In this document: piece after piece, positions 3,290 to 63,890 of the stretch | Layout of the letters: the number at the start of each line of letters is the position of its first letter | Numbering within the stretch: the stretch's first letter is position 1 | Assembly (NCBI RefSeq): GCF_964204645.1 | Contig: NC_134026.1 | Location: 18,572,150-18,636,149, forward strand | DNA length: 64,000 nucleotides | From: Tubulanus polymorphus | Taxonomy: Eukaryota; Animalia; Nemertea | Direction of reading: 5' to 3' | Notes under the pieces: generated by a model | Databases searched by the model: none | The model's input: the letters and a program-made list of their open reading frames with translations, nothing else | Told to the model about the DNA's origin: nothing | Position numbers and translations under genes: made by a program

Positions 3290-3583
3290 CGTGACTGTAC
3301 GGTGATATCCATAGGTTAACCGTTCGTCAGTTCCCTAAAAAGGCCGTACGTGAGTTCCCTAAAAACGCCGTACGTGAGTTCCTATAATCTGCAAACGCGC
3401 ATGCGTGAAAGAATAGAGTTTGGGTTAGGTGAGGCTAGGCTATTTGTAAATCAAATTTCATCCACCTTGCAGTTACGTTCTGTGGCACCGTGGGTAAATC
3501 ACTGGACTACAACTGGATTTTTTTTCGTTTGGTTTCGAATCCCAATATTGCAAGTCTGAGCGTCAACGTACTCACATACGGCT
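3290..3583 (-). mobile_element. HINE/DINE-1-like small non-autonomous element at the Helitron truncation point
   Basis: Subterminal inverted repeat GTACTCACATACGGC (3568-3582) vs GCCGTACGTGAGTTC (3343-3357, 3367-3381). Hairpin ACGGT..ACCGT at 3299-3323. Core (CCTCACCTAACCC, GGGATTCGAAACC) homologous to 34695-34820 and 52428-52550. Confidence 0.5.
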
Positions 3584-6500
3584 AACATTCAAATATATGT
3601 TTGTTACCCATGGATACCTCATCAATTACCAAGAGTGTTGTACGTCTTAGCAGGTCAGCTGTAGCAGTATTGTTGGAGATATTGCATGTCGAGTCTTCTT
3701 TGACATTTATAGGAATTTTACATCTTGAATGTAGTGTTCTGCCATTGTCTAGGAGTGTGGATGCAATACCAGAAAGAGCAGTTCCTAATGCTACGAAACC
3801 ATTGCATCTTGCTGCCGTTAGAATAACATTAAGCAAGTAGGTTTTCCCAGTTCCACCACTGGCATTTATGCAGAAAAGTTTGCCTTCATCATTCTGAAGT
3901 GATCCAATGACAGCATCATAAATGAGTTTTTGTTCATCATTTAAGGTTGGCAGCTTTTCTGTGAGTGCAGCGTGCAGTGCTGGCATATCATAAGACGTTT
4001 CTTCAGAAATCACTCTGGGCAAAGAGGTGACTGAATCCAATACTGGTAATGGAAGCGAGAAATCCAATGCAAGATCCAGGCCTTCACGTTGAACTGCATG
4101 CTGTAACTGTAGTAGAACTTCATTCTCAACTCTGGCAGTAACGTGATCAACATCCATTTGGTGCATTATGTCCCTGCTTAACTCAGTTCTCCATTTGTTC
4201 CAAAACTGCAATGGGTCTGGTGGCCTGCAGTAGATTAGAAGTGTGGCAAAAAAGTTCCTCAATTGTGACCCAAACTGTAGATTTGAGGCTTCTTCCATGG
4301 CACGATATATTTCTCCATCATCTGTTATGAGGCCGAGTTTCATGCATGCATCTTGGAATGTAGGGCATAGTTCACCGTTGATTGTTCGAAGGTCTTCATA
4401 GCTTGTGGCACCTGCCCGATGGTGTAGGAGCATTCGCAAGAAATACAGTTCAGTTTGATGGGCACTTAATGATATCGTGGGTATACGTCCTAAAACATCG
4501 GTTGTTATTTCACCATTAGCATTGACTGTTCCACGTTTTCTTCGTTGCAATTTTTTGCCCGACGTGTTCCACGTGAAGTATCTTGGGAATTCTGGATACA
4601 GTATAGTTCTAGCAGTTTCATCCTCTGCATTCATTTGGAAGAAGGCTGTCAATTTGGTGGTGGGCGGTCCATTTTCTACAACTGTAGCAGCATCACTTGC
4701 TTGGAACAGCACAGTTTGTTCTCCTGATAGATGACACGGCAATTTCTCAACTGGAGGATATTTTTGGTGAATGGGGAAGCCATATATCTTCCAGAACGCT
4801 TCACTTGCCGATATGTAGCATGCATTGAGGTAGGTGGATATTTCATCTTGGGCTGACGATCCATTGTCCAATGAAACAATAACTATGTCCTGTCCCTTTG
4901 TGATGTACTTATATAGATATTTCACGGCCTGTATAGAGTGAACGACTTCAACATTAATATGAGTATCATATCTGAGTGACAGCAGTGGGTTATATGGAAC
5001 CACAAATGAGTTGTCGACATCAAAATCAGCACCTCGGATACGAATGGTGTTTCTATAGCCCCCTTGATCTGAGGATCTTCGTCTGTAAACAGGGTAATTG
5101 TCGTCATGGACCACTGTTCGCTGAGAAAACATCTTTGGGAAATTTTTTGTGCATCTCCTGTTAACGCCAATACCATCCATGCAAGGACTCCCGGGATTTA
5201 TTGTACCACATGGTCCATGTATATTATTTGCGGTTATTATTTTATGCAGCCGTGGATTGCATGCTATATCGGGAATTTCTGCACTCACTACCTGGTCAAT
5301 GATTTCCGGCGTCCTTGGCTTATCGTCGTTATCCATAATGAGCAATATGTGGGCATGTGAAAGCCCGCGTTTCTGCCACTCTATTGTTGCAGTATGTGCT
5401 TTCACGCGGCCCAACACATGCTTCTTCAGGAGGTCATCCATCAGAGAGTCAAATTTCAGTTTGAACACTCTTACAGCAATGTCTGGTCGATCATGTGCTC
5501 GCTCACCCGGATTTAGAGATTCCACTATTTCAGGCCACTTTGGATTTGTTGTAAAAGTGATGAAATAGTCTGGTCGTCCAATGTATCGGACAATAGTCAT
5601 CGCATTTTGAAATGCCTCTGAATAGAAGCGCGGAGATCCATATATTGTTGGTGGTAGAATTATTTTTTTACCTGGGTTCATGACATCACCATTCTGTATG
5701 GCATCATGTAATCCTTGGTATTTTTCGGCTCTTATGGTCTTCTAGTGTAATTTGGCCCATTGCAGTCGGGACATTTCAATTTTAGCCCACTGATCTACTG
5801 CATACTGTTGTAACAAACGACGACTTTTCATTAGAATATTTGAATCATTTTTCCGAACATGGAGGCGGTACGAATAGAAATCTAATGCGGTGAGTGTTTT
5901 ATTATCAGTGGTTTTCAGACCTAACTGCCAACCATCCGTTCCATATGGGAAGAGAAGAACATAATGTAACGGATCATATGATCTGTGTAGATTACTGATT
6001 TTCTTTAAACCGCCTTCGCGAAATTACTATAACATCAGCATTTCCGCATACATCTCCGTGCAATAGAGCTGATACCTCAGACGAAGTTGGTAAGTTATAT
6101 AATCTACAGTGCTCAAGCGATGGTTTCAATTTCTTGTCAGCATGTAGGATGATGCGAATATCTTCATCTGTGCTAGATGTCAGTTCTATGGCACTTTTAA
6201 ATGACTGTACATATGAATTAACTTCGTGAAGGTATTGTTGCAATTTGGTCAGGATATCACGATTCAATGCACTCATATGCAGCAGACGATTTTCAACCTC
6301 ATTATCGGTGTCATAAAAAAATAACTGCGTACTTAGGCGTGGATGTCTCGTCTGGAAGTAAGGAACCAATCTGATGGTACATTTTACCTTGTATTTTAAA
6401 TGTGGGATTAAAACCTGGAGGTGAAACAGTAGTACAGCCAATTGATGCCAGGGCTAAAGCATTATTGTATGCCCTTATATTGTTCAGAAAATGTTCATCA

Positions 6501-6928
6501 TTATCAAAGAGATAACAAATATCTGCCGGTGGTGCAGGTATAGGTTCGACAAAAATTTTCCCACTTTTGCAACACATGGATGGCTTTTCGTCTGGCCATC
6601 TGTACGCACTGCAATGTGCGCAGTTAATGTCATAAAGTTTTCTACAATTGTGGCGTATGAGGTCATGAGGTAGTGTATCCTCATCAAAGTGTTCAGAAAC
6701 TCCAAGTCTTAGAAAATCAGAATCCCTGAAATGGCGAGTTGGGGGTTCTGACTGTGATCGTGCATCCAATCTCAATGCTCTAACTCGGTCACGCATCCGA
6801 CTTGTTCTTTCTTCTCTCTGTTGTGGACTTTCTTGTGCTCGCGTTGTTTTTCTAGCAGCTGCATCTTTTGATGACCGTGAAAGGGAACGACTTCTGGCCT
6901 TTTTAGGCATTTTTAAAACCTCAACCAA
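3582..6928 (-). pseudogene. Helitron Rep/helicase (RepHel), frameshifted and 3'-truncated
   Basis: N-terminal Cys-rich CAHC..MCCKSGK; HUH motif EWQKRGLSHAHILL; catalytic KYLYKYITKG; PIF1 Walker A ASGGTGKT and Walker B LLVIDEVSM. Split over ORFs 6311-6928, 5992-6441 and 3582-5681; ends just after Walker B. Confidence 0.96.
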
Positions 6929-7002
6929 TTACCGTCAAAGAAAAAAAGTTAGTCTGCAATGAAATTACAAATTATCTTTTTATTATCAAAATGTTACAAA
7001 TT

Positions 7003-7540
7003 TTATTCAGATTCTGAATTTATTATCTTCATCGCCCCCTCTTCATCAACTTGCTCTTCACTCTTCTCTCTCGTCTGAGTGTCGCACATCTGCAGTGCCA
7101 GTGATAGTTCGGCATCATCTGTGCTGGATATGTCTAAGTTTGTACTACATGTAGTTTCAATCTCTGGATCTGTGGTTTTTGGTTTTTGTAGTAGCACTTT
7201 CTTCGGCTGCGGTTCGGAATTTTGAAACAGACATTTCCGTTTTGGTGTCGATTGAGCTACCGGTTTGATTGCAGATTTTGCAATCTGGGATTTGAATCCC
7301 GCTATGGTCCTTCGGGCATCTGTTTGTAGGGCTGCTAAGTCTTTATGTCTGTACAGAATTTATCAAACGATTCCTGGATGCAAGATAATGCGCGAGGGTT
7401 CAACTTACTGGACTCCTTGCAGTTGTGATATACAATGTTGAGCTCAGCCACTGCCAAATCTTTCACAATGCTACTTTCCGACTGTTTGATCTTGTTTATA
7501 ATTGTTGTTATTCTTTCATTAATATTAACGGACATCTGCA
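7003..7540 (-). pseudogene. Frameshifted exon of unknown protein upstream of and co-oriented with the Helitron RepHel (possible cargo)
   Basis: Acceptor-like TTTGCAG at ~7537. ORFs 7335-7541 and 7003-7197 appear to be one coding stretch broken by a frameshift; UIM-like DAELSLALQMC. Confidence 0.3.
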
Positions 7541-8539
7541 AATATAAAAAATTGTGTGTCGAGTTAAATTTTCACCTATATTTTAAATTGTTTTGGGTCA
7601 GATCAGTTGTCAGTAATTATAATGAACAGGACTCATTTCTCATATCTGCAACATAGAGAAAAAATTATTTTCTGCCTCATTTGAAGGAATGTTTTTTTCA
7701 GGGCACCATAGGGCCCTAAAATTAATGTATTTTTCACCATGTCACCTGTGGGGCTCCGTAAAGTTTATCATTTAAGCCTACCTTTAATATTTTTATAAAT
7801 CTTGAGACTTGAAATTGAGAAACTGAAGAACAGCAATGCAGATATCTGAAATGGACAAAAAAATTGACTTCTAAAAATAAAATGAACCATATATATACTC
7901 TGTAGCCTACTTTTAGTTAGTTCCGTAACGTAACGTTTTAACTCGAAAACATTTTTCCTCATATAATGGTAGCGACTATTTGACTCTCTGGAGCAAAACC
8001 ATTAGGAACGAATCGGGACTAAAACTTTTAGTCAGTTACTTTCACTTTCACTTTCACTTTAACTCGACTGAGCAGGTTTATAACTGGACTCAGGTGTTTG
8101 GTTGGCTTATATTCTTTGGCTTAGTTCATTTTGTTTCATTGGGAAGCTGGAGATATTTCATGAAGTGGCTAGGGCCGGGGTAGCCTCCTGGCATTCAATA
8201 AATTTATTTGAATTGATTTTGACTTTATTTGTAGTTCAAGCCCGTTCAAGCTTTAAATTAGGCATGAGTGTGCTCTCTGTGTATTATGTCAATCAGCCTA
8301 CCTTTGTTATAAACGTTATTGACACCAACGAAGGTTGACGATGACAATAGATGAATACAAAACACACTGAAACAGGTTTTCAAAGCATGAATGGAATGAA
8401 TACACGTGAATGAGAACTGAAGAAGCAGTTGTATTTCCGCATCAGACCATGAAGCCGTGTGAGGCAGTGTGAGCAGTAGGCAGTGAAAGAATAAATATTA
8501 TTCCGAGAAAACAAAGAACAAAATTACTTACTTGCTATC

Positions 8540-9140
8540 TGGGCCTTACGATCTTTGATTTTGCTTGTGGTTTTAGAGAGGCGAGCCTCCTTTTCTTTCA
8601 GCGAAACTTCCTCCGCTCTAGTAGCAGCAAGAAATTCCCCAAATCTCTGGAACCTTCCCTCCCTTTTGAGGTTGAGGGATGATATCATAGCCTCATTTTC
8701 GTTTGCGGCACCTACGTTTATTGCCTTCCTAAAAAGGTCTGTAGGCGCTGTATATAATGACTACTGGTTTCGTCAATCGACTGTTTGGATTCATAGAATC
8801 TCATTAAGATAGAATGTCCATCAGCAACAGTGCCATAGACGACCTGCAGAACTTCATTGATCTCTTTTAAAGTTGCATCAGGGCCTAAGCTCCGGACAAT
8901 GCCCATAGCTGGCTGTGCCAGGCTTTGAAAAATAATTCTCTTTTTAATTCGATCATCTCCGTCTTCCCTTTCAAGCTCGTTTACATAAAAAGACCTTGTA
9001 TCAAAATATTCTTTCTACCTGAGAATAATTTGAGTCTACGGCTCCATGATTTTTCATTAATATGGCCCAATTGGCCATCTGCCTCCTCGGCTCTACGAGC
9101 ACTAATCTCAGCCTCAGTCTCAGCCTCAGCCTCAGCCATG
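8540..9140 (-). pseudogene. Ty3/Gypsy PNMA-type gag fragment
   Basis: GIVRSLGPDATLKEINEVLQVVYGTVADGHSILMRFYESKQSIDETSSHYIQRLQ resembles the PNMA/Gypsy capsid region; disrupted. Confidence 0.75.
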
Positions 9141-9648
9141 ACTAATTGTAAACAAAAGAATTAAAAAAATACGACCTATTAGCGGATACTGGAAGCAGTT
9201 CCTGGTCAAATTAATAAAACTAGTTCTTGGCGAACCTACTCTTATACTAGGAAAATGAAAGCTTTTAATCTCTTTCAACTTTTGTCCTAATTTTCACAAT
9301 CTAAACTAATAACAGAGTTACTCCAGGAAATTTGTGAGTGCAAATCGTAACTACCGGGATTTCTAATTACATTAACCCTAATATCTATAGCCAATCACAT
9401 GACGTGCAGTGGATGAGCAATGCAGTTTCTCTCACTTCTAACTGAAATAATTATATCTAAGTATCAACACTGAAAAAAGAATGCTTATATTCTTATCTGC
9501 TTAGTTCTGACTGAAATATATACTAACACCCATTCAACAACTGCGCCACAATCAGTGGGCGGTACTGACAGTTTGACCTGACAGTTGTCAATAATCAAAT
9601 GAATAGTTCATGGTATTCTCTAAAAATAAATCCGACAGATTTTAAAAA

Positions 9649-11009
9649 TCCCAGCGAGGGTGCCAAATGTAAAATACCCACTTGCTACACAGAATTACAA
9701 GAAAACCAAAATCGCCACGGTGGGTTTGGGAACAAATGTCAGAGAGAAATACCAGGACTGAACTTGACTAAACGCAGAACCATTCATATAAGAATATAGT
9801 ACAATTTTATATTTTTCTATAAAATGAATAAACAGTTACAAGATTATATAATTAATATTAATCAGACCACAAATATTGCCTAAATTCAATTAAGTGAGCC
9901 CACTGACTTGTTACTAATATGTATTAAATAGTTTTCCTAAAAAGATTTTATCATACGACCTGTTTGTTGGTTGTCCGTTCCGAATTTACAGCAATCAACG
10001 ATAAATTAATGTCCAATTAATGTTTCTTTACAGCCACTTCATCCAAATTCGATAATGTCAGTCAGTTTGTTTTTTCACTTAACACAATAAATTCACTTTC
10101 CAATTTTCCATCTGCACCACGATTACAAAGTAACCAAATCATCCTCAACAGCCAATATACACAAGAAATAAACCAAACCACATCGCTCACCAATCCACAA
10201 ACGTCGCCAAAATAAAAGTAGCTTAAATCCAATTCCGGAATGTCACCATAATTTCCGGTAAATCAATCCGTTTAAATACTTTCGATTCTCGAATGTGAAC
10301 AATTCGAAATCAATGCGCCATTCGATACAAATTTTATATTCTTCTCGCAGAGAAAAATTAATACTAAAGTTCCGCAAGCTGCTGTACTCCGTTTTATTTG
10401 TAGTTTACAAATAGTAAAACTTCTGTTCCTGATCGAACGAATTGCACTTCGATATTCGTATCTTCCGTGAAAATTACGCTTCCACAAAAGTTAAAGTAAC
10501 TCCTTAATTACTCATAAATCAGCAATGAGCAATTGCTAATTTTTTTCTCGATCCACTGCGAGAGCTAAAGCTTTCATAATATTAAAAACCTAGTTGGTTT
10601 TTGATAAAGAATTAACTTATAAAAGAGAGGACTAATTATTAGTTACTGCCCTCCTCTAGATCATGAGATCCCTTTTTCTTCTCCCTGACTAAAATTCAAC
10701 AACAGGAAATTCCCATCTAAATTATCCCCCATTTCCTGAAACTACTCAGGAAAAATAGTACCTTCCAAAATATAGAATTAAACCTTTGAAAACTTTTCTT
10801 AATTGAAAATAAACATTATAACACTCCAACTAACTGAACCTGATAAAGTTAGTTGAAGTTTTCTAAAGTCTGATGAATCTTAATATTTTTAAGTTTTAAA
10901 CGTTGACAGATGCAATCTGGAGGCACATAGCTTACCAAAAATGGTAAGGTTATTGCTTCTCTAAGATTACATATAACATTACTCAATTATAACCCCTGAC
11001 AATGTCACA
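9649..11009 (-). mobile_element. Putative 5' LTR (~9668-11009) and primer-binding site (9649-9665) of the Gypsy element
   Basis: Minus strand reads ...TTTTACA TT TGGCACCCTCGCTGGGA (LTR end CA, then a TGG-starting PBS) upstream of the gag. Candidate LTR start TGTGACA at 11009; this outer boundary is uncertain. Confidence 0.55.
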
Positions 11010-11462
11010 AACTGAAGCGAAATTGATGATAGCACATACTTCTGCCATGAAGGTGCTCAACACGTCATGTGTCAAGGTTTTCCCTGTATTCCCAAGGAGG
11101 ATTGAATCATAGAGTTCATAGCTATTGAATAATAGAGTTCAACTCTTAGTAGCAAATCAACTGTGCTTTGGTCGTCATCTCCCGATTCCAAGGACATCGT
11201 CAACAGCTAGGTCCATAGCGCATACATCAACAGCAACTGAGAGCTGTTATCTAGCAAATATTCTTGAGGGCATCTGTAGCTTGCTCACATAAACAAATTC
11301 GAGTGACTGATTGTATCCAGCCAGTTCCTCTCATGCGCTGAAAACTGCCTGGTAACTAGTTGTGTCCAATCGCAGTGTGCTAGGCTTTAAGAAGGCATTT
11401 AGGCCTAAGTTGAATCACCTCTAATTTTGAGACTTTATGAGGCCTATTTCTCAATTTTCCAG

Positions 11463-12973
11463 GAGATAATGAAGACTTGGCAAAAATTGGTGAGGCTAAT
11501 GAAAAACTGAGGTTTTGTGATGTGAAAAACAAATGCTATGAGTATGACTTAAAATGTGTACTGCTTACACATTTATTGAAGAAACTTATCCCAGATTGCT
11601 CAATCGCTGTGATGACTGATGAAATGGAAAGTATAGGGAAGACAATGAGGAATCCTCATGCTGAAAATGAATTTCTCTGTAGCTGTGGTTGTGGAGGGAG
11701 GATTTTCACTGACAAAACTTCAATTGGTATGTACATTAGACTAAGTGCTTAAATACAACCTTCAGGTGCACGTTTTATAGACTGGTATCATATTTGGCTG
11801 ACTCAATTCAAATTGCACCTCCCCTGAATCAGACTCTAGCCTCATAGCCTTACTTACCTAACTTTTTATTTAGATATGTTGGATCATGTGTTGGACCATT
11901 TCTTCTTTTCTTCGAACCACTACAGAGTTTGTCCTGTGGTTAGGGACTGGTGTGGTCTAATGCTGAAATACATGTGGAATTTTTGTTCGATGTTTCACGA
12001 TCAGCTTAGCCCCTTTATTTTTTAACAATTGCGAACAATTGGTGAAATCTGACAGTTATGGGCGCAGTGTAAGCTTATCATTTGGTTCAGTAAAACTTGT
12101 GGGTAAAGTAACTTGTGATGATAAAGAATGAATTATGATAGGACGTGACATCCATACCTCAAATTAAACTGATTGTGCCACATTAGCACAAGGAATTTGA
12201 GTACTTTTACCCAGAGTCAACTGTCTAAAGGGTTGGTCTAGACTGACAGCAGAATTCAATACAAAAGTATTTTCCCTTAATACAACCTAACAATATATTC
12301 TCCAAGTTTCTCAATGGGACTTGGCATTGGCCATAAGTCAGTAAAATCGGTTTCTTGTTTGCTAGGCCACCAAGAAGTATTCCATGGAAGAGTGGATGCA
12401 ATAATTGGGAAAACTGCAATTCAAATGACTCTCGAAGTACCTGATCCTGATGATGAAGGTGTTGATGAAGATACTGCATTTGAATTTAAAAAGGGTACCA
12501 TTCTTAATGTGGATACCATTGAACAAGGTGCTGCAACGGCAGTTGTTTTTTCATTTTTAAAGGCAAAAGAAAAGGGGCATTTCATTGTTGCCTACAATGA
12601 AAAGCAGCGCCTCAAATGCTATCTTACTCCAACCATTTTAATATCTGAATCAAAGTATATTATCATGTTCTATGATGCCGTAAATGATCTTTTCCTTGCT
12701 TCAAATGAGGAAATATTCTGGCACCAGACATTAAGAATAAAAGATTTTTTCTATTTGTGGCTGGCACTGAACTATGAAAAAACTATGATGACTGTATATG
12801 GAACTGATACTTGTGAAAAGGTCAATTACCTAAGGTCTGGGTTTCATGAAAAAACTTGCAATTTAGACAAGTATTATGAAGTTGAGTATGGAGTTGAATT
12901 TAAAGAGCCAATGTCAAACCTGACAGAAATTTTCATGAATCCCATCAGTGATATAATTTCTGTGTTGCATTAG
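11463..12973 (+). CDS. Two spliced exons (11463-11726, 12366-12973) of an uncharacterised protein with a Cys-rich CSCGC motif and a possible PD-(D/E)XK-like nuclease motif; upstream exon(s) not found
   Basis: CCAG acceptor at 11461-62, G|GTATGT donor at 11727, polypyrimidine-TAG acceptor at 12364-65. The phase-1 join reads DKTSIG-HQEVFHGRVDAIIG and stays open to TAG at 12973; FEFK downstream of the Asp. Confidence 0.65.
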
Positions 12974-13210
12974 GATCTTTAGCCCACCGTTCGTGGCTGA
13001 TTGATTTGATGACCCCCTATATATCCCTAAGATCTGGTATGAGTTCGATAGTATTGAAAATCAGATCAAAGATGGCCAATAGTCGGCCATTTTCGTTTGT
13101 AAAATGCACAGTTTCGGGTTTTTGTGATTCTGAGTTAGAGAACATACTTTCAGTGTATAGATAATGCTTTATCTAATTTGAGACTAGCTTGAAAAAAATG
13201 TGAGATGAAA

Positions 13211-13453
13211 TTGAACATGACTTAGCTGGAAGTTGTAGTTTGATGATAATTTCATTGAATGAGCTTAATTACAGAGGGAGTCACATAAGATGACGTCACT
13301 GGTTCCCCCAAGTCAGTATTCAGGAGAAATTAATGGTAAATTAATAAAACGGGGCCGGATACAATATTAGGAAAGGGCACAGGATCCCCTCTTAATTAAG
13401 CTCCTTCAATAAAATTATATTCCAACTACGACTTCCAGGTAAGTCTTGTTTAA
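13211..13453. repeat. Imperfect ~70-bp inverted repeat with ~100-bp spacer (MITE-like)
   Basis: 13211-13282 TTGAACATGACTTAGCTGGAAGTTGTAG... is close to the reverse complement of 13383-13453 ...CTACGACTTCCAGGTAAGTCTTGTTTAA. Confidence 0.75.
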
Positions 13454-14000
13454 CTTCCGGCAAAATTTATAGTATTTCTTAGTAGTTTAGTGGTAAAATC
13501 TGGGGTTTAAAATGATTCAATGAGTTTTTTACGGTACCGGGATAGCTTCTGTGCCCCTACATTGGAAGAGGTTGCAAAAACTTTCAATATTTAGCTACCC
13601 TCTGATTGGTGATGTCATGTGAATTTTATTTAGGAGAAGATTCGTAGAGTAGCCATGTTAACCGGGTTTAGAATAAATAATGAGACAAGTATTCATACAA
13701 CAGTAGCGAAAGCCCTTGTGTCAAGTAAATAGTGAACCAATATAGTACTACTCGTCTCGTTATGAATTTTCTTTGAATAGTTTTAAGATTGTGAAAAATA
13801 TATTTTTTGAAAATAAAGAAATTGACAACTTATTTGACAAATTATTTGACAACTAAATAATGAGGAGCACGCCTTCGCACACCTGCTCCCAGGCGGCGCT
13901 GATCGTCAATTGGTTATTTTGAACCGGAACAATGGGGCCATTCACCACCGCGCATCGCCACTTTTACTGAACGCTTTAAAGCGTTGTATTATATCTAACA

Positions 14001-43985: not shown

Positions 43986-43989
43986 GTCT

Positions 43990-49935: not shown

Positions 49936-50028
49936 CATGTTACGCGGATATTGTGTATCATCTTGATTCGTACATGTTCAATAATACAATAAGCACATGA
50001 AACAAAATTAAAAATTTCGGTAAAAATT

Positions 50029-52919: not shown

Positions 52920-54429
52920 CTTTCCACGGTGTAACGGGCCAGAGATTTTCAAAAAATCCGAACGCAAACCACCGCCATTTGCAATTTTGTGTAACAGGTG
53001 CCTGGACCAGGTAGCCATGGCAACCATAAAAATGAAAACTCAATAAAATTGAATTGACTCGCGACTCGTCGATGGTCACAACACCAATGAATAAAATGAA
53101 ATTGAATTGCCGTCGGCATGACATCGTCGGTATGTTTTTTTGTTCGAAACTCAACGAAATTTCTCATGACATTTTAAAATTGCCACTCTCAGACAAAATT
53201 GAACACATTTCAGAATTCACTGCCCCCTTTCCCATTTCCACTGCCTTTCTAAAAAATTCACTGCTATTAACAGCCGTGAATAGATTTTTTTCAATTCACT
53301 GCTATTTACTGCTTTCACTGCCCGCGACGAACCCTGCGAGTGGGTATACCACGTGTAAGTAGATCCGCTGGATTATTTTGGGTCGGTACGAAATTCAATT
53401 CCACTTTAAGATTATCTAATTTCAAAGAATTTATCTAGTGCACCCTGTTTTAAACGAAACATGGAAGTCGATTTTCACTCCTAGTCAAACTTATAGGACT
53501 ATCTCGCTGTCGGCCCAGATAATCGCTTAGCTGAAATGGTAGCATGCATTGAGCGCATTTAATGAATATCTGATCAAACAGGCCCCGACGGCGGTGGCCA
53601 TTAACTCGAGGCGTGGTAACGAGAGCTAATTAACGGGTACAACTTCTCTGTTTTTCGCTATGTTAAGTGCGTTGTTTTGACATAGATAAACGGTTGCTCC
53701 GTAGCCACGTATACTCGCTTCCACAAAACAACGTAATTCAGTATCGGTATCCTCCGGCGGCGCAGAAAAATTCTTCCGGTTAATCGCTATTTTTCTCGCA
53801 TTTTGTAGATCTCGGAACAAAGTTTTCCAATTATTGCACATTTCGTCCGGTAATAATTCATTCGATTGCTGTCGATTCGTCTTTCACCGACGTAACAACG
53901 TTGTCTATGTATATTCTTGATTTCATATCATAAGCGTACTACTATACTTTTGTATTTCGACAATCCGTTCGAATGCCTAATCACCCACTTCTACTATAGA
54001 TGATTGTAGATTTTCATCAGGTGTCAACGAGAGAATAGTTTGATCGAGTTCTTGTATGAGGTTTAGCTTTGTGACTGCTGATGATATGATTGCTACTAGA
54101 TTCTGAACTTCGGCTAGGCCTACTTCTGATGACCTGGATTGTAGGCCCTGGTAGACCTCCTCTGCACGATTGAGATATTTAGATAACTGCCCTCGGTGGG
54201 CCAACCGAGATGCTGTAGGACGCTTCGTTTGGTCCATTGTATTATGACGCTCAGTTTCGTCATTCGCGTGTTCTGATGTCGTCGACATGATCCTGGTCAC
54301 GGCACCAAATGTGATGGAGTGACTATAACCACAGAGAGCTGACCAGATCCGAAGGTGCAAAGTCGACAAGCTTGTTGTATTTCGTGAATCTAAACAGCAT
54401 CTAACTTTATTACTACCGTACTAGTGGAA

Positions 54430-55045
54430 AGCCCGTGGAAACCACAGGTGATTTTTAAACGTAGAACTTCCAACTTATTAGTTCATTACACATGAATTGG
54501 GTAGGAATTGAGTGGCCTATTATGTGGTGTGATCACCTGTGCCCATGGAGACCATATGGGATCTCGGGACCGACTAGACCTGTGCCCGAGGATACTGGGG
54601 CCCTTAATCACATACTGAAAATTTCTTCTTCCCATGGAGGCCCAAGGTAATAGAGCTATAGGTAGAAACAAATATGTAAAGTGCCGATATGATCATTTTA
54701 TAATGTATGAATTGTATGCAGTACTGAATATTTGAACCTGCCTGAAACAGAACTATAGATAGCAAACAAATGTACCGGTATGATCATTTCATAATGTAAA
54801 GCCTGTGGAAACCACGAGTGATTTTTAAACATACTACTTCTGACTTTTTTGTGAATTGAGTAGGAGTACTGTGATAACCCATGCCCGTTGAGACCATATG
54901 GGATCTCGGGACCGACTTGACCTGTAGCCAAGGATACTCGGTCCCTTAATCACATAATGAATATTTCTTCCCATGGAGGCCCTAACAGAACTATAGATAA
55001 GATATCAAAGAAATACATAAATTACCGATATGATCATTTCATTAT
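54430..55045. repeat. Diverged tandem duplication (units ~370 bp apart) inside the BEL-C LTR
   Basis: GTGGAAACCAC..GAGACCATATGGGATCTCGGGACCGAC..CCCATGGAGGCCC..CCGATATGATCATTT occurs twice. Confidence 0.85.
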
Positions 55046-55231
55046 ACGCGGTACTGAAGATCTGAACCCATGGGTACATCACGTAACAGATACACCACTC
55101 TGCTGACTTCAGTAAGTGAGTTTATTGCTTTGAACCAGCAGCAGCACCTCGTAGGTTACACTAAGTGGGTTAATTGCTTTTTTATTTACTATCATCTGTT
55201 ACATTTGAAAAACTGTTTCATGACCCGGCAG

Positions 55232-56456
55232 TATGGTGGCTGATTCGGGCCACGCCAAGATTTTTCGAACACGAAAAATCTCAAAACAAACTTTATAGCG
55301 AGAAAACAAATATTAACGCGAGAAAACAAATATTTAGCGCGAGAAAACAATTCATTTTGTTTTCTTGTACTAAATATTTGTTTTCTCGCGCTAATATTTG
55401 TTTTGGCGGGGCGAGAAAACAAACTTTTGTTTTGGCGGGGTCGCCAAAACAAATATTAACGCGAGAAAACAAATATTTAGCACGAGAAATCAAATATTTA
55501 GAGCGAGAAAACAAATTATTTTGTTTTTTCACCCGAAATATTTGTTTTCTCGTGTTAATATTTGTTTTCTCGCTATCGAATTTGTTTTCTCGCTTTAAGT
55601 TTTGTTTTGGCGGGGTCGAGAAAGTAGGGCGTGTATGTCGTTACAATACAAGGTCAGTTCTGTTTAACATCTGACTGCCAAATGATACGTGTGATATACA
55701 TTGTGTGTTGCGCGTATACCGAATTTTGCGTTCTGAATTAGAGAAAAGGAAAGCTATATTAGGAGAGCTCATATCTTGGTAGATCGTGTTGTGTTTTCTA
55801 CAAGAACAGGATGACCGCTCAGGTATGGAATTTGTTAAATATTCATATTTCGAAATTATCAAACTATTTGTTCTTAGTACCGTACTCTAATCCGCTTAAT
55901 CGGTTATATTTCTTTATAGAGGGCGATATCATCACACAATTGTTTAACGACGGGTTTACTAATAAGGAAATCTGCCACTCACTCACGACTTATTTTGCTT
56001 TGGCAATGAGGTAAGAGGTTATTTGGCCGCTAAGTAAATATCATACGTTGAGGGATCGATAAGGCTAAATTATGTATTTTCGCTAAATTTTCTGGGAATC
56101 GTTCTCAAATCCTTGCTGTCTTTGCTGTGAGCGTACATTAAAACGGCGAATTTACAAACTAGGATTAAAAAGGAGATGTAACTATAAATTAAATGAAGTT
56201 GCCAGTGTTGTAGAGGTAGTAACGGTTATCTATACGTAGACATTTAATTTCTAGTGTTTCATTAATATCAAAATGTTTATCATCGTAATATCGAGAAGTA
56301 TACAATGTTTCAGTTATCATTCTGACAAGTTAATTGCTGCCAGTATGTGATATAGGTTTCTTTAATTACGGGAAGAGTACGTGGTAGCGGTAGCTGTTTG
56401 GGCTACAGAGCCATGACAAGTACATTGAGGAATCGCTATGGAATCCGTGTTCCTAG
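55232..56456 (+). mobile_element. IS3EU-like element: left end with palindromic CGCGAGAAAACAAAT repeats and 5' exons of the transposase
   Basis: Starts TATGGTGGC; repeat block 55270-55615; exons from ATG 55811 encode IITQLFNDGFTNKEI.., RTLKRR..LGL, GSGSCLGYRAM..LRNRYGIRVP. Integrase core missing. Confidence 0.7.
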
Positions 56457-56799
56457 GTACGATGATGGTCCGTAATTGTTAGGAGGGGGATACATAGAAT
56501 CCTGCGTTAATTATACCTCATTTCTCTAAAACATTAAGGCCTTCTGACCATTCGGCGGAAAACCTTATTGTTATTGCCTTGATTATTATCACTGAAATGG
56601 AGTCGGATTGATTATGTTTTTATTATCCGAGATCAGTTTATCAGATGACCTGCGTGCTTTTCGGGACTGGCCAAAGTCCGAAATTCAATTTGAAAAGAAA
56701 GCGAGGCCCATGACATACCAATTCTTGAAGAATGCAATTATCGGAATTTGACGACTGGAATTTGAACAGTATATTTTTTCACGGTCCCTTTCTACAGTG

Positions 56800-58010
56800 T
56801 GTACTTACGAAGAGGCTAGGGTATTTATCAAACCACATGGTGCTGGTGACTGGAGCCCTTGAACACTTTCTGTCGCTGGGGATTCACCCTGAGCGTCTTG
56901 TTGTTGACTTAACTCACACAATTGCTGTAAAGTGGGAAAGTCGTCCTCGTCACTGCTGGTGGTACACGTGTGAAGGTATATTCTCACAGGATTTGACTTA
57001 TGAAAATCTATGTACGACTGAATACAGAACTCTTCACCTGATGGTAGGTGTTCTTTGAGTTTGTTTCCAGTAAACGTTGCAAGATATGTCGCTAAATCAT
57101 TGAGCTTTTACTTCATCCCGGATGCTTTGCCTTGAGGAAAGAACAACGTGGATATAACTTTGGTTAGTTCTAATAATTTCATTTTTTTGTCTACATCTAT
57201 GCCGTGGGAACCACCACCAAAACTCAGAGATACAGAATTGAATGATATTCCATCTTTTGAGTGTTTCCACCCGACCATGATACGTCTCGTTTGTTTTGCC
57301 GCATTCATGTTATGTTCATATTTCACTGTAGGCCTATCAACTTTCTTCGGTTTTTTTTCCATAAGCCATACGGAGTCTACTGACTACGTCTGACGTATTT
57401 TCGCCACCTAAAAAAGGTAAAGTTACACGTATACCGGGCATCAGGTTTTCATAAGAATAAGCTAGACAGTGAGCTCATGTAAATCACTTATCAACATCGG
57501 CATTGCTTTCGATGAATTCAAACAGAGGATTCGTTTAATTCAAACAGGATTTAACGAATGCGGATTGGATCCCTGGAGGACTAGTGTAGACTTACATTCA
57601 CTGTCTAAAGTCTATATCCATATTAAGTGAACATGGTGAATTAATTCAGTTACCGGTATTACAACTGAGAGTATTTATGTTGCTTAAAGTTTAATGATGT
57701 CTGTCTCCCGACTCACCCGTTTGACTTCTAACCATGTGACATCTTTGTCGTAACCGATTTCGGTCACCTATGGCACGAATACCCATAGCAATATAGTCAT
57801 CATCTGCTAAAGTCAAAACGTTGTCTATGTCTATCTATAAGGACAAAATGTTACCGAACATTTTAAGACTACGAAGGGCAAAATCATCATAATTTAATTC
57901 AATTCTCCTTGTTAATCGGAGTGTATTATTACCTTATTATCGCGAAAGACTGGGATGAACTGATCCAAGGCAAGTTCCGACAGAATGCGATTAATATTTT
58001 TCTCATCCAT
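56800..58010 (-). pseudogene. Spliced SAM-domain gene convergent with the IS3EU transposase (probable second gene of the element)
   Basis: ATG 58010; exons encode MDEKNINRILSELALDQFIPVFRDNK|IDIDNVLTLADDDYIAMGIRAIGDRNRLRQ (SAM-like), then RRIMVGWKH..GGGSH..LFFPQG. Confidence 0.6.
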
Positions 58011-58874
58011 GGCTGAATACACCTATAGCCTTCATTTGTGTGATCGTTTCGAAATTTTCAAAAAGAAAATACCTAGGGTGAATGATACATTCTTTTTATG
58101 ATTAATAATGATAATATATGGAAATCAAAGTAGAACTAGTCCACTTGGCCAGTGGTTATACAGCTTATCGTATATGCGTAACAATGGGACAATCTAGAAA
58201 ATCCATTGATTATGGATTTCTACGATCAACTGCAACCGGAGAACTTTTCTCAATTTAGATTTCAAATTTTCGATCACCTTTATACGTGGAAATGTTCTTG
58301 GATCCATTTAATATAACTGAGTCTCTTCAAATTGTTGATTATTTCCTAGTTTGGTAAATGGCCCACCACATAAATTCCAAAATACATTTTCAATGGAAAC
58401 CACACCCAAGCGATAAAACACGCCGAGATGTACCACCCGGCACATTTTTAGGGCGATACATGCAGTAACGACGAAGCAGTCGGTACAACAATTCGGTATT
58501 ATTATATATGATTATTATAAAAGATAGGGTTAAGGCATAGTATACATGGCGCGAAACAGCAACCAATCATATAAGAGAAACTTCAAAGAATCATATATGA
58601 GAACCAACACATGTTGTTCTCGACAATGAGTCAAGTTAGTTTGGCTGTGTAAGGTGTAAGTCTGAAGTCTGTACATAAGAGAAAAGACAAAAAATACAAA
58701 TTCAAGTACATAATGAACTTATAGAAGTATAGACCTATAGAAGTAAAAAAATTACTTTTGAAAGTGATTTATTTATTTAACAGTTTTTTTACAGCATACC
58801 TTCCTAGTATTTAAACATCAACATGGAAAACACAACTCTCGAGGACGACATGTGTTGGTTCTCTTATATGATTC

Positions 58875-59465
58875 CAGGGCTGCCAATGTCTCCGATTTCG
58901 GCGGAGTTTGCTACGGTAAAACCAGTAGAACTCCTGTGCTACGGGAGTGGTGAAAAACTACGCTCGAGCGTCGGTCTCATTCCGGTACTCCGCCGAAGAG
59001 TCAATCGAATACGCCCATAATCAATTTCACTCCGGTGTTCCGTTAGAATGCCAATCGAATACGCTCAAATTTATTTCACTCCAGCGTTCCGTTAGAATGC
59101 CAATCGAATACGCTCAAATCAATTTTGTCATTGTTAAATCCTATCCACAGAACGGTAGTCTTTGGTTTGTGCGCATGCGCAGTTATCAATAAGCGATCAT
59201 GAAATGTGATAGTCGGAGGTTGGATTTAGTATTCACCTGTTAACATGGCGGCATCGTTGTCTGATTTGGATTTTTCGGCAAACGAATCGAATTCCGATGA
59301 TGATGAAAGCGAATCGGAAGAAGGTGAAGTAACTGCGAGGAAGAGAAAATCCAAACAAGGGACTAGTAAGGAACAACAGAATAAAAAAACCCGTGTCGCC
59401 AATCAAAAATTCAAAGCAGAATATACGTCCAAGTATCCGTGCATTGTTCCATCTCAAATATCAAA
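58875..59465 (+). mobile_element. 5' end of another hAT-like element with truncated transposase start (59245-59465)
   Basis: CAGGGCTGCCAA terminus, CTCCG-type subterminal repeats; ORF with acidic/basic tract then QKFKAEYTSKYPCI, ending in (AT)n. Confidence 0.55.
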
Positions 59466-60030
59466 TATATATATATAAATGTATCTCGAGTGAAATTTTG
59501 CTTACGCTTGAGATCCGCGCTCTCCATTTTTCGACAATGTATTACTAGGAATGATGCATTATGGGTAGCTAATTCTGAATTAACTTCGGAGATAATTCGA
59601 ATTAGTTAATTTTTCGCTAATTCGCGTTTGTGAATCAGATTTAATCATCGAATTAACTAATTCGAATTAAGCATTTTTGATTTGAATTATCACCTAAGAT
59701 AAGCCTGTATTAAGACTCTTGGTGCTAATTAATTATTGTCTTATTACCAAGCATTAATAACAGCACAAACAACCAAATGCCCTGTAGAATTTACGGCCAC
59801 ATCAGTCAGCTAACTCCTAAAAAAGGAATTCAGTCTCTCTGAGAACTCCACAATTACATGCAAAAACAAATGCTCTAAAATGTGAAGATGACGCATGTAA
59901 ACGTATGTTTCTGGCTATAAATGCATTGTCAATTTTTACAATTACTAACTGCATAGAGATATAGAAAAATTGACAAGTATATAATGTATACATACTGTAA
60001 TCTATAACTATAAGAAATCTATAGTTATAG

Positions 60031-60186: not shown

Positions 60187-61009
60187 AATTGACGGATCCA
60201 TTGGAGGCTTTACAGCCTATTAATATCCGCTTCGATGTCTCGCTTTAAGTTGCCATACGGCAGTAACCCAGCTTTGGCTTGGAAAAACAGCTTTGATTAA
60301 TCTTGATTAAATTCGCTTTCAAGACACAATTTACCCTTGTTGTACTAGGGCAGGCCTAGTAGTAATATACCTGATTACATTCTCAGAAAGTTTAAACATA
60401 TAAAAACTATTAATTACTCCTTTTAATAATTTTTAGAGAATTTCATGATTCATACTGTTACTGAAATCATATCTGTTGGAAATAAAGAAGTGCGCCCATT
60501 ACAGTGTGGTACTCCAGCGAAATCCGGCAACCTCCATTATAAATCAATATGAAGCAATGATCTAAAGAGGTGACAGAACACAAAGTCCCACCGACACGAC
60601 TCTAGAGTACACCATTCCTGGTGGGTGTTACTGTTAGTAAAAGAAAATAGTTTAAAAAAATAATAATAATAGTAAAGTAACTGAAATTTTCTTTATGTTA
60701 GTAATTTGTTAATTATGTTAATTATTTTTACATGATTTGTTAGTTAAAATTGATGTATTTTCTTTCCTTAGAAAAACTTTTTTTTAATCAGGAAAGATTA
60801 TTAGTATAACAAACATTAAATTGATTTCATTAGTAAAAAGTTCATCAGAAATAATCATACACATGATTAGTAATAACATGACTTCCCGACTTTTTAAAGA
60901 TTCTGTACCTACTACTTAGGGTCGCATCTCTTACACAAGTGTACGTGCTATAAGTAAAAGAGATATAAATATTATAAAATTCACATTTGCGATAACACGC
61001 GCTTAAAAG

Positions 61010-63890
61010 TTAAGTTCATAGTCTTTGTTTTTCCAGAATTTATCAAGTCTAGCTTTGAAGGCTTCCATGGAAGGTGCATTGACTATATTCTCAGTCAGGG
61101 CATTCCAGTTGTTTACCACCCTTTGATTAAAAAAGTTTTTTTTAAAACTCTGAACTGGACCTAAATTATGTAAGTTTCAGACAGGCCTCGTAACTGTCTA
61201 CCGGTACATTTTGGCAATGAGGTATTCGTATCACATGTTATATAATCATGCATGTAACTGTACACCGTAATCATATCTCCTCGGTCTCTCCTATAGTTTA
61301 AGGAGTGTAGATTCAGGGACTTAAGTCTTTCTTCATAGCTTAAGTGACGTATCGATCGGACCATTTTGTCGCCCTTCTCTGAACCTTTTCTAATTCGTAT
61401 AACTCTTTTTTCAGGGCTGGTCTCCATACAGATCGCATATTCCAGGATAGGACGGACTAAAGATTTATACAATAATGTTAGTGTTGCTGCACCCAAAAAG
61501 GAGAATGATCTTTTTAAACATCCCAATATCCTATTAGCTTTGTTAACTGCCATAGCTCGGTGATCCTGGAAGTTTAAATGCTTGTCGGTCAGGAGCCCGA
61601 GATCGTTTTCGGTCTGGACACTTTTTATCTCCACCCTATTGCCACATTACAGCATCGAGTAAGTCGTCTCCAGAGACTGTGCATTTTTCTTGTTTACATG
61701 CATGACTGTGCACATGTCAGGGTTGAATTCCATAAGCCATGTATCCGCCCATTTGGAAAGGGCATCTAGATCATTTTGGAGTATAACTGTGTCACGCATG
61801 GTGTTTATTTCTTTATAGATCATGGAGTCATCAGCATACAATAGTACTTTGCTCATCACTTGTTCGGGAAGGTCGTTTATGTAAATAGTAAAAAGTAGTG
61901 GCCCTAACACGCTCCCTTGGGGAACACCACTGGTTACGGCTAGCTCAGAAGATTATGATTCGTTGATTTTAACAGCTTGGAGCCGATCCTGGAGGAAATT
62001 TCAAATCCAGTTTAACACATTCCCTTGAATCCCACATCGTTTTAACTTAAACATTAATCTTTTATGTGGCACCCTGTCAAAAGCCTTCTTAAAGTCAAGA
62101 TATACCGAGTCGATTTGTTTGCCTTTGTCCAGAGATTCTGTCCAGTCATTCAGTGTTTCTAACAGCTGCGAAACTGTGGACCTCCCTTTAATGAATCCAT
62201 GTTGAGAGAAGTAGTGACGATATAGTGCCTCACTCAAGCAGATGTTCCATGATATGGTCCCTGATTATCGATTCCATCATTTTACAGACGCAGCTAGTAA
62301 GACTAATAGGCCTATAATTTTCGGCCATGTTCCTTTTCCCTTTTTTGAATAATGGCTTTATATGGGCAAGTTTCCAAGCTGATGGCAATACTCCTTCTTA
62401 AAGCGATTTTCTGAAAAGGAGTGTCAAAGGTTTTACTAGTTTTGGGGCTGCCTCTTTCAAGATTCTCGGGTGTATATAATCAGGTCCTGGCGATTTATTT
62501 GTGCGCAAACCTTTAAGTTTCCTTAATACCATCTCCTCGGTGATACCAATATCTGGAACCTGAGTATCCGAGGTATTAGCACACCCGCTGTTATCAAATG
62601 GGTCCTCTCTCGAGAAATCACTTCCAAGGAATTTATTAAATAACTCGGCTTTTTGATGATCCCTTTTAGTCTCGTCCGTCAAGTACGAGATGTTTGGAAT
62701 ATCTTTTTTCTCTGACCCTTTTGAATTACAGTATTTCCAAAAAGCCTTTGGATTTTCTTTTGATTCAACCGCGTCTTTTTTCAAAATTCTGTTTAGCTTT
62801 TCTCGTTGCACTTTTGGCCTCGTTGCAAGCACTTTTATATAGTTCATAGTCATCAGGGTTATGAGTTTTAAGTTATCTGCTCCACATTTTGTGTTTTTTC
62901 TTGACTTTTAACTTTGTTCCGATGTCCATCCAAAGAGGAGATTTTGATTTCCATTTACTAGTACAATAATGGTACGCAGATACCTTCGGCCTGTGTGATT
63001 TTTGAATGTAAACTCTCCCAGCATGATTGTACAGAAACTTCGTCCTCTTCCCAGTGGTCATTGGATAATGAAGTACCTAGGCATTCCCGTAATGTGTTGT
63101 AGTCGCCTCTGTTATAGTTTCTATGCTGCCGTCGAGTAGTTGAATTTACTCTGATAAGCGTTTTCACTGTGAACAAAAGACACAAATGATCACTATTCCC
63201 TAATGATGCCAAATATCCAATGTCATCAATTACCTCTGGGGTATTGGAAAAAATAAAGTCTAAAACGTTCTGCCGCTGGCCCATTCTAACTCTGGTCGAT
63301 TGCGTCACGTATTGGAAGAAATGTGCATCGTGAACGCTATCGAGAAACTTTGTTGAGGGATGTTCGTCGGAGGTTGTACTGGTCATGTTGTTCCAATTTA
63401 TTTCAGGATAGTTGAAATCCCCACAGAAAATGATCTCCTTCCCTGTTATTTTCGCAAGGGATTCTATCGTTGTTGGTAACAGGTCATTGTTAATCATTGG
63501 GCTGTTTGGGCTACGATAAATGCATCCCAGTAGTATTGGTTTTGATTTCTTTGTGCCTCCAATTTCTATCCAGACCATTTCTGTAAATTGACCTTGCATA
63601 TTAACAACATTATCTTCAGGTGAGCGTGGATTTAATTCCTTCTTTACATAAATAGCTATCCCTCGACCTCCTTCCTTGTTTTCTATGTTTGTATAAATCT
63701 CGAAATCTTCACTTCCATTGAAATTTAAATGTTGCTTAATTGACCGGAAACTTGAGAACTTTGGTTTTACTTCGGTCAATGCCATAATATCCGGCTTTAC
63801 TGATTCGACTAGATAGCTTAGCTCAGCCTTCTTATTCATAAGAGAGTCAACATTCGACTAAATACATTTCAGCTCACACTGGCACTTTGA
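61010..63890 (-). mobile_element. CR1-clade LINE ORF2 (APE + RT), degenerate
   Basis: PDIMALTE, GCIYRSPNS, GDFNYPEINW, SDH; KSPGPDYIHPRILKE, NYRPISLTS, QHGF, YLDFKKAFDRVPH, SGVPQGSVLGPLLF, YADDS, RRDRGDMI, RVVNNWNAL. Confidence 0.95.

What the first reader, a model, noticed from the sequence alone, without database searches (positions are those of the whole stretch)
3582..63890. Strong co-orientation of diverse TEs: candidate uni-strand (flamenco-like) piRNA cluster
Seen: all 10 retroelement remnants (Gypsy, Ngaro/DIRS, Penelope, 3 LINEs, 3 BEL/Pao, DIRS gag) and 6 single-gene DNA elements (Helitron, Academ, hAT, its derivative, hAT fragment, EnSpm) are on the minus strand. The exceptions are one short hAT end (58875) and the two bidirectional two-gene elements (ISL2EU, IS3EU). 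Ten of ten has two-sided probability ~0.002 if insertions are independent and unbiased. Established: uni-strand piRNA clusters such as Drosophila flamenco hold nested, truncated TE fragments antisense to one long transcript. Inference: a plus-strand transcript here would be antisense to a dozen TE superfamilies, including DNA transposons, i.e. a TE-trap locus in a non-model invertebrate. The alternative is the intron of a plus-strand gene that purges sense insertions.
Basis: partly seen in the sequence, partly recalled or inferred. Interest (0 to 1): 0.85.

Follow-up and report, generated by a model that had tools for sequence, protein, structure and literature searches.

The report
One-way transposon pile behind host gene
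In what is probably a ribbon-worm genome, nearly all jumping-gene remnants point against a spliced host gene, lying in its likely intron and in 50 kb behind its last exon, a layout that would suit read-through RNA feeding transposon-silencing small RNAs, but that step is untested and the one RNA-like sample shows a spliced transcript on the opposite strand there.

Summary
The strand bias is real: 10 of 10 retroelements and 16 of 19 elements with a polarity lie on minus (P 0.002 and 0.004; 0.035 after collapsing nested or related copies).

Its last two exons (11463-11726, 12366 to about 13832) encode residues 141-430 of a named Tubulanus polymorphus protein. Residues 1-140 are not in the window, so 1-11.4 kb (Helitron, Gypsy) is an inferred intron. 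The other 14 minus elements lie behind the gene's inferred poly(A) site. That is the layout of mammalian piRNA clusters downstream of genes, not of flamenco, whose bias is Gypsy-only.

No small-RNA or stranded data were available. The single RNA-like run has canonical splice joints of a locus-specific minus-strand chimeric transcript (59 to 50 kb), sense to the transposons, which argues against one antisense precursor in that sample.

Best reading: gene-driven plus-strand transcription, with predicted read-through, shaped the array (0.4). Chance plus nesting is close behind (0.3). The scan noted similar one-way piles in three other genomes. Interest 0.35.

The parts
1..11462 (+). Inferred intron (>11.4 kb) of the plus-strand host gene; its upstream exon(s) lie left of the window
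   Evidence: Residues 1-140 of the 430-aa protein P0001 have no match in six frames (tblastn to E 10, no 6-mer). The X2 contig starting at the acceptor carries 24 letters from elsewhere. Canonical acceptor at 11461-11462.
3582..7500 (-). Helitron RepHel, 3'-truncated, frameshifted
   Evidence: Helitron_like_N E 2e-43, PIF1 E 4e-36; X1 depth 98 vs 28-40 on unique DNA.
8500..9150 (-). Gypsy-like gag remnant
   Evidence: PNMA E 2e-8.
11463..11726 (+). Host-gene exon (residues 141-229 of P0001)
   Evidence: 100% tblastn; X2 contig with 0 differences and GT..AG joint to 12366; junction context.
12366..13832 (+). Host-gene last exon: coding to the stop at 12971-12973, then 3' UTR; AATAAA at 13812-13817; 3' end inferred near 13832
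   Evidence: 99.5% to P0001 residues 228-430; X2 contigs 12366-13223 and 13443-13832 with 0 differences; sequence. Contigs cannot show an RNA end.
14000..16213 (+). ISL2EU-like element, THAP + DDE transposase gene
   Evidence: THAP E 8e-4; HTH_Tnp_4 and DDE_Tnp_4 above cut-off.
16616..18700 (-). ISL2EU-like element, second gene (YqaJ exonuclease, weak SWIM)
   Evidence: YqaJ E 4e-13.
19742..24100 (-). DIRS/Ngaro-like retroelement with SGNH-like ORF
   Evidence: RVT_1 E 2e-10, weak Lipase_GDSL; clade name from recalled motifs.
24100..25089 (-). Penelope-like remnant
   Evidence: GIY-YIG-like motifs in the frames printed; no Pfam hit; name recalled.
25872..27103 (-). LINE endonuclease + ORF1 remnant
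   Evidence: Weak Exo_endo_phos E 9e-4; ORF1-like frame (recalled motif).
27104..37022 (-). Internally deleted copy of the window's hAT; host of two nested insertions
   Evidence: Pieces 94-98% identical to 49446-49693 and 52424-52725.
27205..34544 (-). Academ-like DNA transposon nested in the hAT derivative
   Evidence: 841-nt terminal inverted repeats, 98%; ORFs of 659, 364 and 468 aa; empty site at about 49546; name recalled.
34953..36990 (-). L2-like LINE nested in the hAT derivative
   Evidence: RVT_1 E 5e-18; insertion point by comparison with the hAT.
37369..37962 (-). 5' fragment of another hAT-like transposase
   Evidence: 198-aa ORF; recalled motif only.
38300..43790 (-). BEL/Pao remnant 1, split by a non-coding element with ~470-nt inverted ends (about 39795-42825)
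   Evidence: Weak DUF1759; inverted repeat 91%; 4-bp duplication at its ends.
43790..45800 (-). BEL/Pao remnant 2, internally deleted
   Evidence: DUF1759 E 8e-21; shares its primer-site-like motif with remnant 3.
45880..46400 (-). DIRS-like gag remnant
   Evidence: 112-aa ORF; recalled motif only.
47549..48546 (-). EnSpm/CACTA-like transposase remnant
   Evidence: ORFs, C2H2 fingers below cut-off; name recalled.
48916..54420 (-). BEL/Pao remnant 3, split by the hAT
   Evidence: Peptidase_A17 E 6e-9; 6-bp duplication flanking the hAT.
49437..53336 (-). Near-intact hAT-like element with one frameshift near 51.73 kb
   Evidence: Terminal repeats; P0032 (same 31.9-Mb contig as P0001) matches the window without mismatch over residues 1-84 and 151-674; P0033 on another contig has 1 to 14 mismatches per segment; X1 depth 88-130.
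55900..58011 (.). IS3EU-like two-gene element: transposase remnant on plus (55900-56760), SAM-bearing second gene on minus (56805-58011)
   Evidence: Frames; weak SAM_1 E 0.0025; no Pfam hit for the transposase; name recalled.
50029..59053 (-). Spliced chimeric transcript: 59053-58800, 57407-56809, then the hAT acceptor at 52230 and the hAT intron 51454-51371
   Evidence: X2-only joints 57405>58798, 52230>56809 and 51368>51453, all GT-AG on minus with pyrimidine tracts; one 884-nt contig carries the first two exons; middle exon single-copy in X1.
58875..59467 (+). High-copy hAT-like 5' end; candidate promoter source of the minus transcript (inferred)
   Evidence: Sequence; X1 depth about 400.
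60900..63890 (-). CR1-like LINE
   Evidence: RVT_1 E 1.5e-14, Exo_endo_phos_2 E 3e-13.

Best explanation
The window holds the last two exons of a spliced plus-strand host gene, with transposon remnants antisense to it in its inferred upstream intron and in a 50-kb nested pile behind its inferred poly(A) site; the bias likely arose because plus-strand transcription from this gene, predicted to read through the pile in some cells such as the germline, removes sense insertions and would turn antisense ones into piRNA sources. Shown: the strand bias, the gene, its splice joint, the nesting, and a minus-strand chimeric splice form. Inferred: the intron status of 1-11.4 kb and the 3' end near 13832. 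Untested: read-through, piRNA production and selection.
For: Downstream of the gene 9 of 9 retroelements and 14 of 15 single-gene elements are antisense to it (two-sided P 0.004 and 0.001; 14 of 17 counting the two-gene elements by transposase, P 0.013). The gene is intact, spliced and single-copy, and TE coding sequence starts about 170 nt after its inferred end. This matches the gene model of mammalian piC-DoGs: dense antisense TE fragments right behind a host gene that makes only its short transcript in other cell types (PMC11615739, passages). Slug piRNA clusters are mostly uni-stranded, with a representative one antisense to packed TE fragments (same paper); a second slug shows a typical unidirectional cluster (PMC12506671, passages). 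Intronic antisense bias of LINEs and LTR elements is established in mammals (PMC3088655, passages). X1 contigs bridge the EnSpm/BEL and hAT/BEL junctions although X1 differs from the window at some single-copy sites, so those junctions seem shared between individuals.
Against: In 47440-59990, X2 has 5 of the 9 listed joints: 3 are canonical on minus, none on plus. Two define a locus-specific transcript sense to the hAT and BEL, which a plus-strand piRNA precursor active in the same cells should silence (inference). Poly(A) signals are not depleted on plus downstream of the gene (57 plus vs 54 minus, expected 42 vs 52, P 0.18) and donor motifs are not significantly enriched (40 vs 30, P 0.09); these tests are weak, since the known intron shows no signal either. 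DNA transposons alone show no significant bias (6 of 9). Collapsing dependent insertions gives P 0.035, and the window was picked for its bias among many; three similar windows were flagged in other genomes. In mouse, TE content and orientation behind genes did not generally predict read-through.
Confidence: 0.4

Rival explanations
1. Ordinary TE graveyard: the intronic part reflects normal antisense purging, and the downstream bias is chance inflated by nested and locally copied insertions and by picking the most one-sided windows of a large scan.
For: Nesting and local copying are shown. Collapsed tally 12 of 15, P 0.035; at P 0.002-0.004, 4-9 such windows are expected per 2000 TE-rich windows. 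Three plus-strand transposase genes exist. A sense chimeric transcript is made. No poly(A)-signal depletion on plus.
Against: 9 of 9 downstream retroelements, from several unrelated groups, agree in strand and are antisense to the adjacent gene. A shared insertion-orientation mechanism across such different elements is unlikely (general knowledge).
Confidence: 0.3
2. The 14-64 kb part lies in a long intron of another plus-strand gene or lncRNA (or an alternative longer isoform of this gene) that purges sense insertions without making piRNAs.
For: Established intronic bias; the first 11.4 kb already behaves so. A joint skipping the whole array would be invisible in the stretches laid.
Against: The gene's ORF is complete at 12973 and matches the C-terminus of P0001. 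No plus-strand host domain was found in 145 plus ORFs of at least 60 aa. It needs an intron over 50 kb with a minus-strand spliced unit inside.
Confidence: 0.12
3. Flamenco-like uni-strand piRNA cluster with its own promoter and one long non-coding plus-strand precursor.
For: Strong one-strand layout with nested, truncated TEs; uni-strand clusters are common in slugs.
Against: A coding gene with an inferred poly(A) site interrupts the span. Not Gypsy-dominated, unlike flam-like loci. Minus-strand spliced transcript inside.
Confidence: 0.1
4. The array is a minus-strand, TE-driven transcription unit: promoters and splice sites of co-oriented elements chain into chimeric RNAs, and sense co-orientation was favoured by insertion bias (transcription or replication direction) or retained for such RNAs.
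For: The only locus-specific joints inside the array are minus-strand and link three different elements.
Against: The unit shown spans only about 9 kb. The spliced window sequence gives short upstream frames and a frameshifted transposase. The Helitron and Gypsy upstream of the host gene share the bias.
Confidence: 0.08

Closest known systems
[quoted passage not shown] 2024, PMC11615739; passages read)
   Same: Dense, mostly antisense TE fragments starting right behind the last exon of an intact, spliced host gene; tens of kb long; mixed TE classes.
   Different: Read-through and piRNAs are not shown here. The passages describe piC-DoGs for mammals; this is probably a nemertean. A sense chimeric transcript runs through part of the array.
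flamenco and flam-like unistrand clusters of Drosophila (van Lopik et al. 2023, PMC10643416; passages read)
   Same: TE fragments mostly on one genomic strand, nested and truncated.
   Different: There the bias is driven exclusively by Gypsy elements, flam-syntenic loci of the species quoted are 227-1085 kb, and a discrete promoter makes a non-coding precursor in ovarian soma. Here one Gypsy-like gag among 16 minus elements, and a coding gene inside the span.
Antisense orientation bias of intronic LINEs and LTR elements (PMC3088655; passages read)
   Same: Fits 1-11.4 kb: Helitron, Gypsy gag and a LINE scrap antisense in the inferred intron.
   Different: Accounts for only 2 of the 16 listed minus elements; the rest lie behind the last exon.
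Uni-strand piRNA clusters of slugs Arion vulgaris and Deroceras laeve (PMC11615739; PMC12506671; passages)
   Same: Lophotrochozoan loci with one-strand piRNA output; the Arion example is antisense to packed TE fragments.
   Different: Defined by small-RNA data, which are lacking here; the passages seen do not link them to an upstream gene.

Membership tests
flam-like unistrand piRNA cluster | TE insertions strongly on one genomic strand | tested here: met
   16 of 19, 10 of 10 retroelements.
flam-like unistrand piRNA cluster | Enrichment of Gypsy-family LTR elements, with the strand bias driven by them | tested here: not met
   One Gypsy-like gag among 16 minus elements; LINE, BEL, DIRS and DNA elements carry the bias (feature).
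flam-like unistrand piRNA cluster | One long non-coding precursor from a discrete promoter, antisense to the TEs | tested here: inconclusive
   Only contigs of one RNA-like run, over 32,551 of 64,000 bases; they show a plus coding gene and a minus chimeric transcript.
flam-like unistrand piRNA cluster | Abundant one-strand 1U piRNAs in ovarian soma | not testable with these tools
   No small-RNA run was listed.
flam-like unistrand piRNA cluster | Size of hundreds of kb | not testable with these tools
   No genome held; the array runs to the window's right edge.
piC-DoG (piRNA cluster downstream of a gene) | Position directly downstream of the last exon of an expressed gene with intact coding sequence and splicing | tested here: met
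   the 3' end itself is inferred.
piC-DoG (piRNA cluster downstream of a gene) | Dense TE fragments antisense to the gene | tested here: met
   14 of 15 single-gene elements downstream; 14 of 17 with the two-gene elements.
piC-DoG (piRNA cluster downstream of a gene) | Read-through transcript beyond the poly(A) site | tested here: inconclusive
   Contigs of one run of unknown tissue cannot show or exclude it.
piC-DoG (piRNA cluster downstream of a gene) | piRNAs from the gene's exons and the downstream region | not testable with these tools
   No small-RNA data.
intronic antisense TE bias | TEs lie between exons of one transcription unit (1-11.4 kb) | tested here: met
   Inferred: N-terminal 140 residues absent from the window, acceptor at 11462, 24 foreign letters on the X2 contig.
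intronic antisense TE bias | TEs lie between exons of one transcription unit (14-64 kb) | tested here: inconclusive
   No downstream plus exon seen in the window; flanks not available.

The most novel reading that the evidence does not exclude
This is a piRNA cluster downstream of a gene (piC-DoG) in a nemertean: read-through from a host gene with a predicted restriction-endonuclease-like fold traps retroelements and DNA transposons of many superfamilies in antisense, while a TE-driven sense chimeric RNA from the same DNA supplies a cis target or ping-pong partner. It would extend a cluster-building route described for mammals to spiralians.
Probability: 0.25. Interest if true: 0.62.

Novelty: new member of a known kind. 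Interest (0 to 1): 0.35.

Why it matters
How transposon-silencing piRNA clusters arise is open outside flies and mammals. A 50-kb one-way TE pile directly behind an expressed gene gives a precise, cheap test of the read-through model in a spiralian phylum for which my searches found no paper naming this genus with piRNA clusters (one search listed nemertean piwi-gene work, abstract start and passages seen). If small RNAs are absent, the locus is a useful warning that TE strand bias alone does not identify a cluster. The sense chimeric transcript also shows how stacked, co-oriented TEs can splice into one RNA.

Tried and rejected
No genome is held, so no flanking or genome-wide strand control was possible. 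No RNA holder is on record and no small-RNA run was listed; I treat X2 as RNA only because of its canonical joints, and X5 had 2 laid records. X2 has little or no cover after 13832 (residual depth about 0.5 in that bin), over most of the Helitron and Gypsy, over 16.2-18.2 and 19.5-22.2 kb, and over 47440-48696. Gaps in contig cover prove nothing, so this is not used as evidence. X3 and X4 show no canonical splice joints in the rows listed and carry a 12-nt linker-like loose end (X3 also its reverse complement), so I read them as proximity-ligation DNA (recalled), not as precursor RNA. CT..AC joints also occur in the DNA-like run X1 (57461>57933; 20052>20146), so one such joint alone is not proof of splicing. 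X2's hAT-body letters at 51767, 51778, 51824, 52136 and 52177 match the other-contig copy P0033, so the body cannot be phased with the chimeric joint. My guess of an old LINE at 57.7-58.1 kb was dropped: it is a SAM-like start of the IS3EU-like second gene. Two weak extra minus LINE scraps (2200-2271, tblastn E 0.002; a tail at about 60030-60330, by eye) were left out of the main tally. Poly(A)-signal and donor-motif asymmetry were not significant. No Rfam or tRNA hit. Word-index searches found nothing for the host exon or the IS3EU-like exon; the Atlas gave only a 0.78 lead; no Pfam family for 24 host-gene relatives; Foldseek had no hit at E 0.001. Paper searches with no hit; one search listed six papers, five of them on plants or general topics, none read. 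No earlier notes on this genome or this gene.

Full report
Observation. The window is almost wholly transposon-derived, and the polarity is real. Of 72 stop-to-stop ORFs of at least 100 aa, 50 are on minus. Pfam on all 274 ORFs of at least 60 aa gave above-cut-off hits at 8 minus loci and 1 plus locus, the ISL2EU-like DDE transposase. 200 shorter ORFs in the gaps added no TE domain on either strand. On plus are a hAT end and the transposase genes of the two two-gene elements. Names without a Pfam hit rest on recalled motifs.

Statistics and dependence. Two-sided binomials are 0.002 (10 of 10), 0.0044 (16 of 19) and 0.51 for DNA transposons alone (6 of 9). The insertions are not independent. 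Self-comparison shows a deleted copy of the window's own hAT at 27104-37022 carrying the Academ-like element and the L2 LINE; a hAT with a 6-bp duplication splitting BEL remnant 3; and a non-coding inverted-repeat element splitting BEL remnant 1. Collapsing related and nested copies gives 12 of 15, P 0.035. The window was also picked for its bias, and the scan has three similar notes on other genomes (unchecked AI notes).

A missed host gene. Five runs were listed, none on record as RNA. Laid on 2200-22199, X1 behaves as DNA (flat depth 28-40 on unique sequence, an unspliced contig over 11309-13669). X2 alone has a GT..AG joint from 11726 to 12366 and contigs with no differences over 11462-11726, 12366-13223 and 13443-13832 (15 of 31 joints shown). 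The two exons make one open frame of 289 codons. They equal residues 141-430 of a 430-aa protein, named as uncharacterized LOC141898988 of Tubulanus polymorphus, a nemertean, so the window is probably from that species. Residues 1-140 have no match in the window, and the X2 contig has 24 foreign letters before the acceptor. So 1-11462 is inferred to be an intron, holding the Helitron and the Gypsy-like gag in antisense. The 3' end near 13832 is inferred from the stop codon, an AATAAA 15 nt upstream and the contig's stop; contigs cannot show an RNA end.

What lies behind the gene. TE coding sequence starts about 170 nt after that point and runs to the window's edge. There 9 of 9 retroelements and 14 of 15 single-gene elements are antisense to the gene (P 0.004, 0.001; 14 of 17, P 0.013, counting two-gene elements by transposase). 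This is the layout of mammalian piC-DoGs, where read-through past a host gene's poly(A) site captures dense antisense TE fragments and the gene makes only its short transcript in other cells (PMC11615739, passages). That paper also found no general link between TE content behind genes and read-through. Slug clusters are mostly uni-stranded (passages). Flam-like loci differ: their bias is driven exclusively by Gypsy elements (PMC10643416, passages).

Evidence against one antisense precursor. Laid on 47440-59990 at 98% likeness, X2 has 5 of the 9 listed joints. Three are canonical on the minus strand with good pyrimidine tracts (58800 to 57407, 56809 to 52230, 51455 to 51370); none is canonical on plus. 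One 884-nt contig links an exon in the plus-oriented hAT end to an exon of the IS3EU-like second gene and on to the hAT acceptor. The middle exon is single-copy in X1 and shares three variants with X1's contig there, so the RNA is locus-specific. It is sense to the hAT and skips BEL remnant 3. The last joint matches the 28-residue gap in the named hAT proteins P0032 and P0033, which supports reading X2 as RNA. Caveats: one run, one sample, unknown tissue; CT..AC joints also occur twice in X1; the hAT body cannot be phased; contig depth is no measure of expression. Poly(A) signals are not depleted on plus (57 vs 54), a weak test.

Mechanism. Shown: bias, nesting, host gene, its joint, the minus chimeric joints. 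Inferred: intron, 3' end. Untested: read-through, piRNAs, selection. Unrelated TE classes are unlikely to share an insertion-orientation mechanism (general knowledge), so selection by a plus-strand transcript is the simplest common cause, and the adjacent gene is the only plus-strand unit seen. I put gene-driven read-through feeding piRNAs at 0.4, chance with nesting at 0.3, an unseen long intron at 0.12, a flamenco-type unit with its own promoter at 0.1, and a sense-strand cause at 0.08. These are judgements, informed by the rough likelihood ratios.

The host protein. It has 28 distant relatives at E up to 0.001, named ones from another nemertean and a mussel, and no Pfam family. A model (mean pLDDT 72.6) had no Foldseek hit at E 0.001. 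A second look gave Z 9.7 (rmsd 4.3, 214 aligned) to mitoribosomal large-subunit chains and Z 7.0 (rmsd 4.0, 150 aligned) to the restriction enzyme BpuSI, with NucC, Cas4 and HsdR below. This is a lead for a restriction-endonuclease-like fold, not a function.

Verdict. Observation confirmed; interpretation partly supported and re-framed from flamenco-like to intron plus downstream-of-gene array, with one result against it. At best a new member of a known kind. Supplements of the papers were not read. Interest 0.35.

Noticed in passing
window 11463-13832 (+): Host gene of an unnamed family (28 distant relatives; named ones from a nemertean and a mussel) with a predicted restriction-endonuclease-like fold; no Pfam family.
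   Followed up: partly
window 59053-50029 (-): Chimeric spliced RNA joining three different DNA transposon remnants; it replaces the hAT's own first exon (the putative zinc-finger part, recalled), so any product would be an N-terminally altered transposase.
   Followed up: partly
window 49437-53336: The named protein P0032 (LOC141900835) maps to this hAT and bypasses the frameshift region, probably a gene-model artefact; X2 shows other joints here.
   Followed up: partly
window 39795-42825: Non-coding 3-kb element with ~470-nt terminal inverted repeats and a 4-bp duplication, Sola-like by recall, inserted in a BEL ORF; no polarity could be assigned.
   Followed up: no
window 46512-47437: Two 462-nt tandem copies, 100% identical; a very recent duplication or an assembly artefact.
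   Followed up: no
window 979-2107: 31-nt tandem array (about 36 copies) between 108-nt direct repeats (1-108, 2550-2657); the neighbouring 2200-2866 bin is extremely high-copy in X1.
   Followed up: no
window 3400-3553 vs 34698-34816 and 52423-52548: A small non-coding repeat occurs inverted next to the Helitron relative to its copies in the hAT intron, so non-coding repeats are not all co-oriented.
   Followed up: no
window 23181-23814 (-): SGNH/GDSL-like ORF pieces attached to the DIRS/Ngaro-like element (weak Pfam hits).
   Followed up: no
window 57461-57933 and 20052-20146: Intron-like CT..AC deletions present in the DNA-like run X1, perhaps retroposed or deleted copies elsewhere.
   Followed up: no
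   Followed up: no
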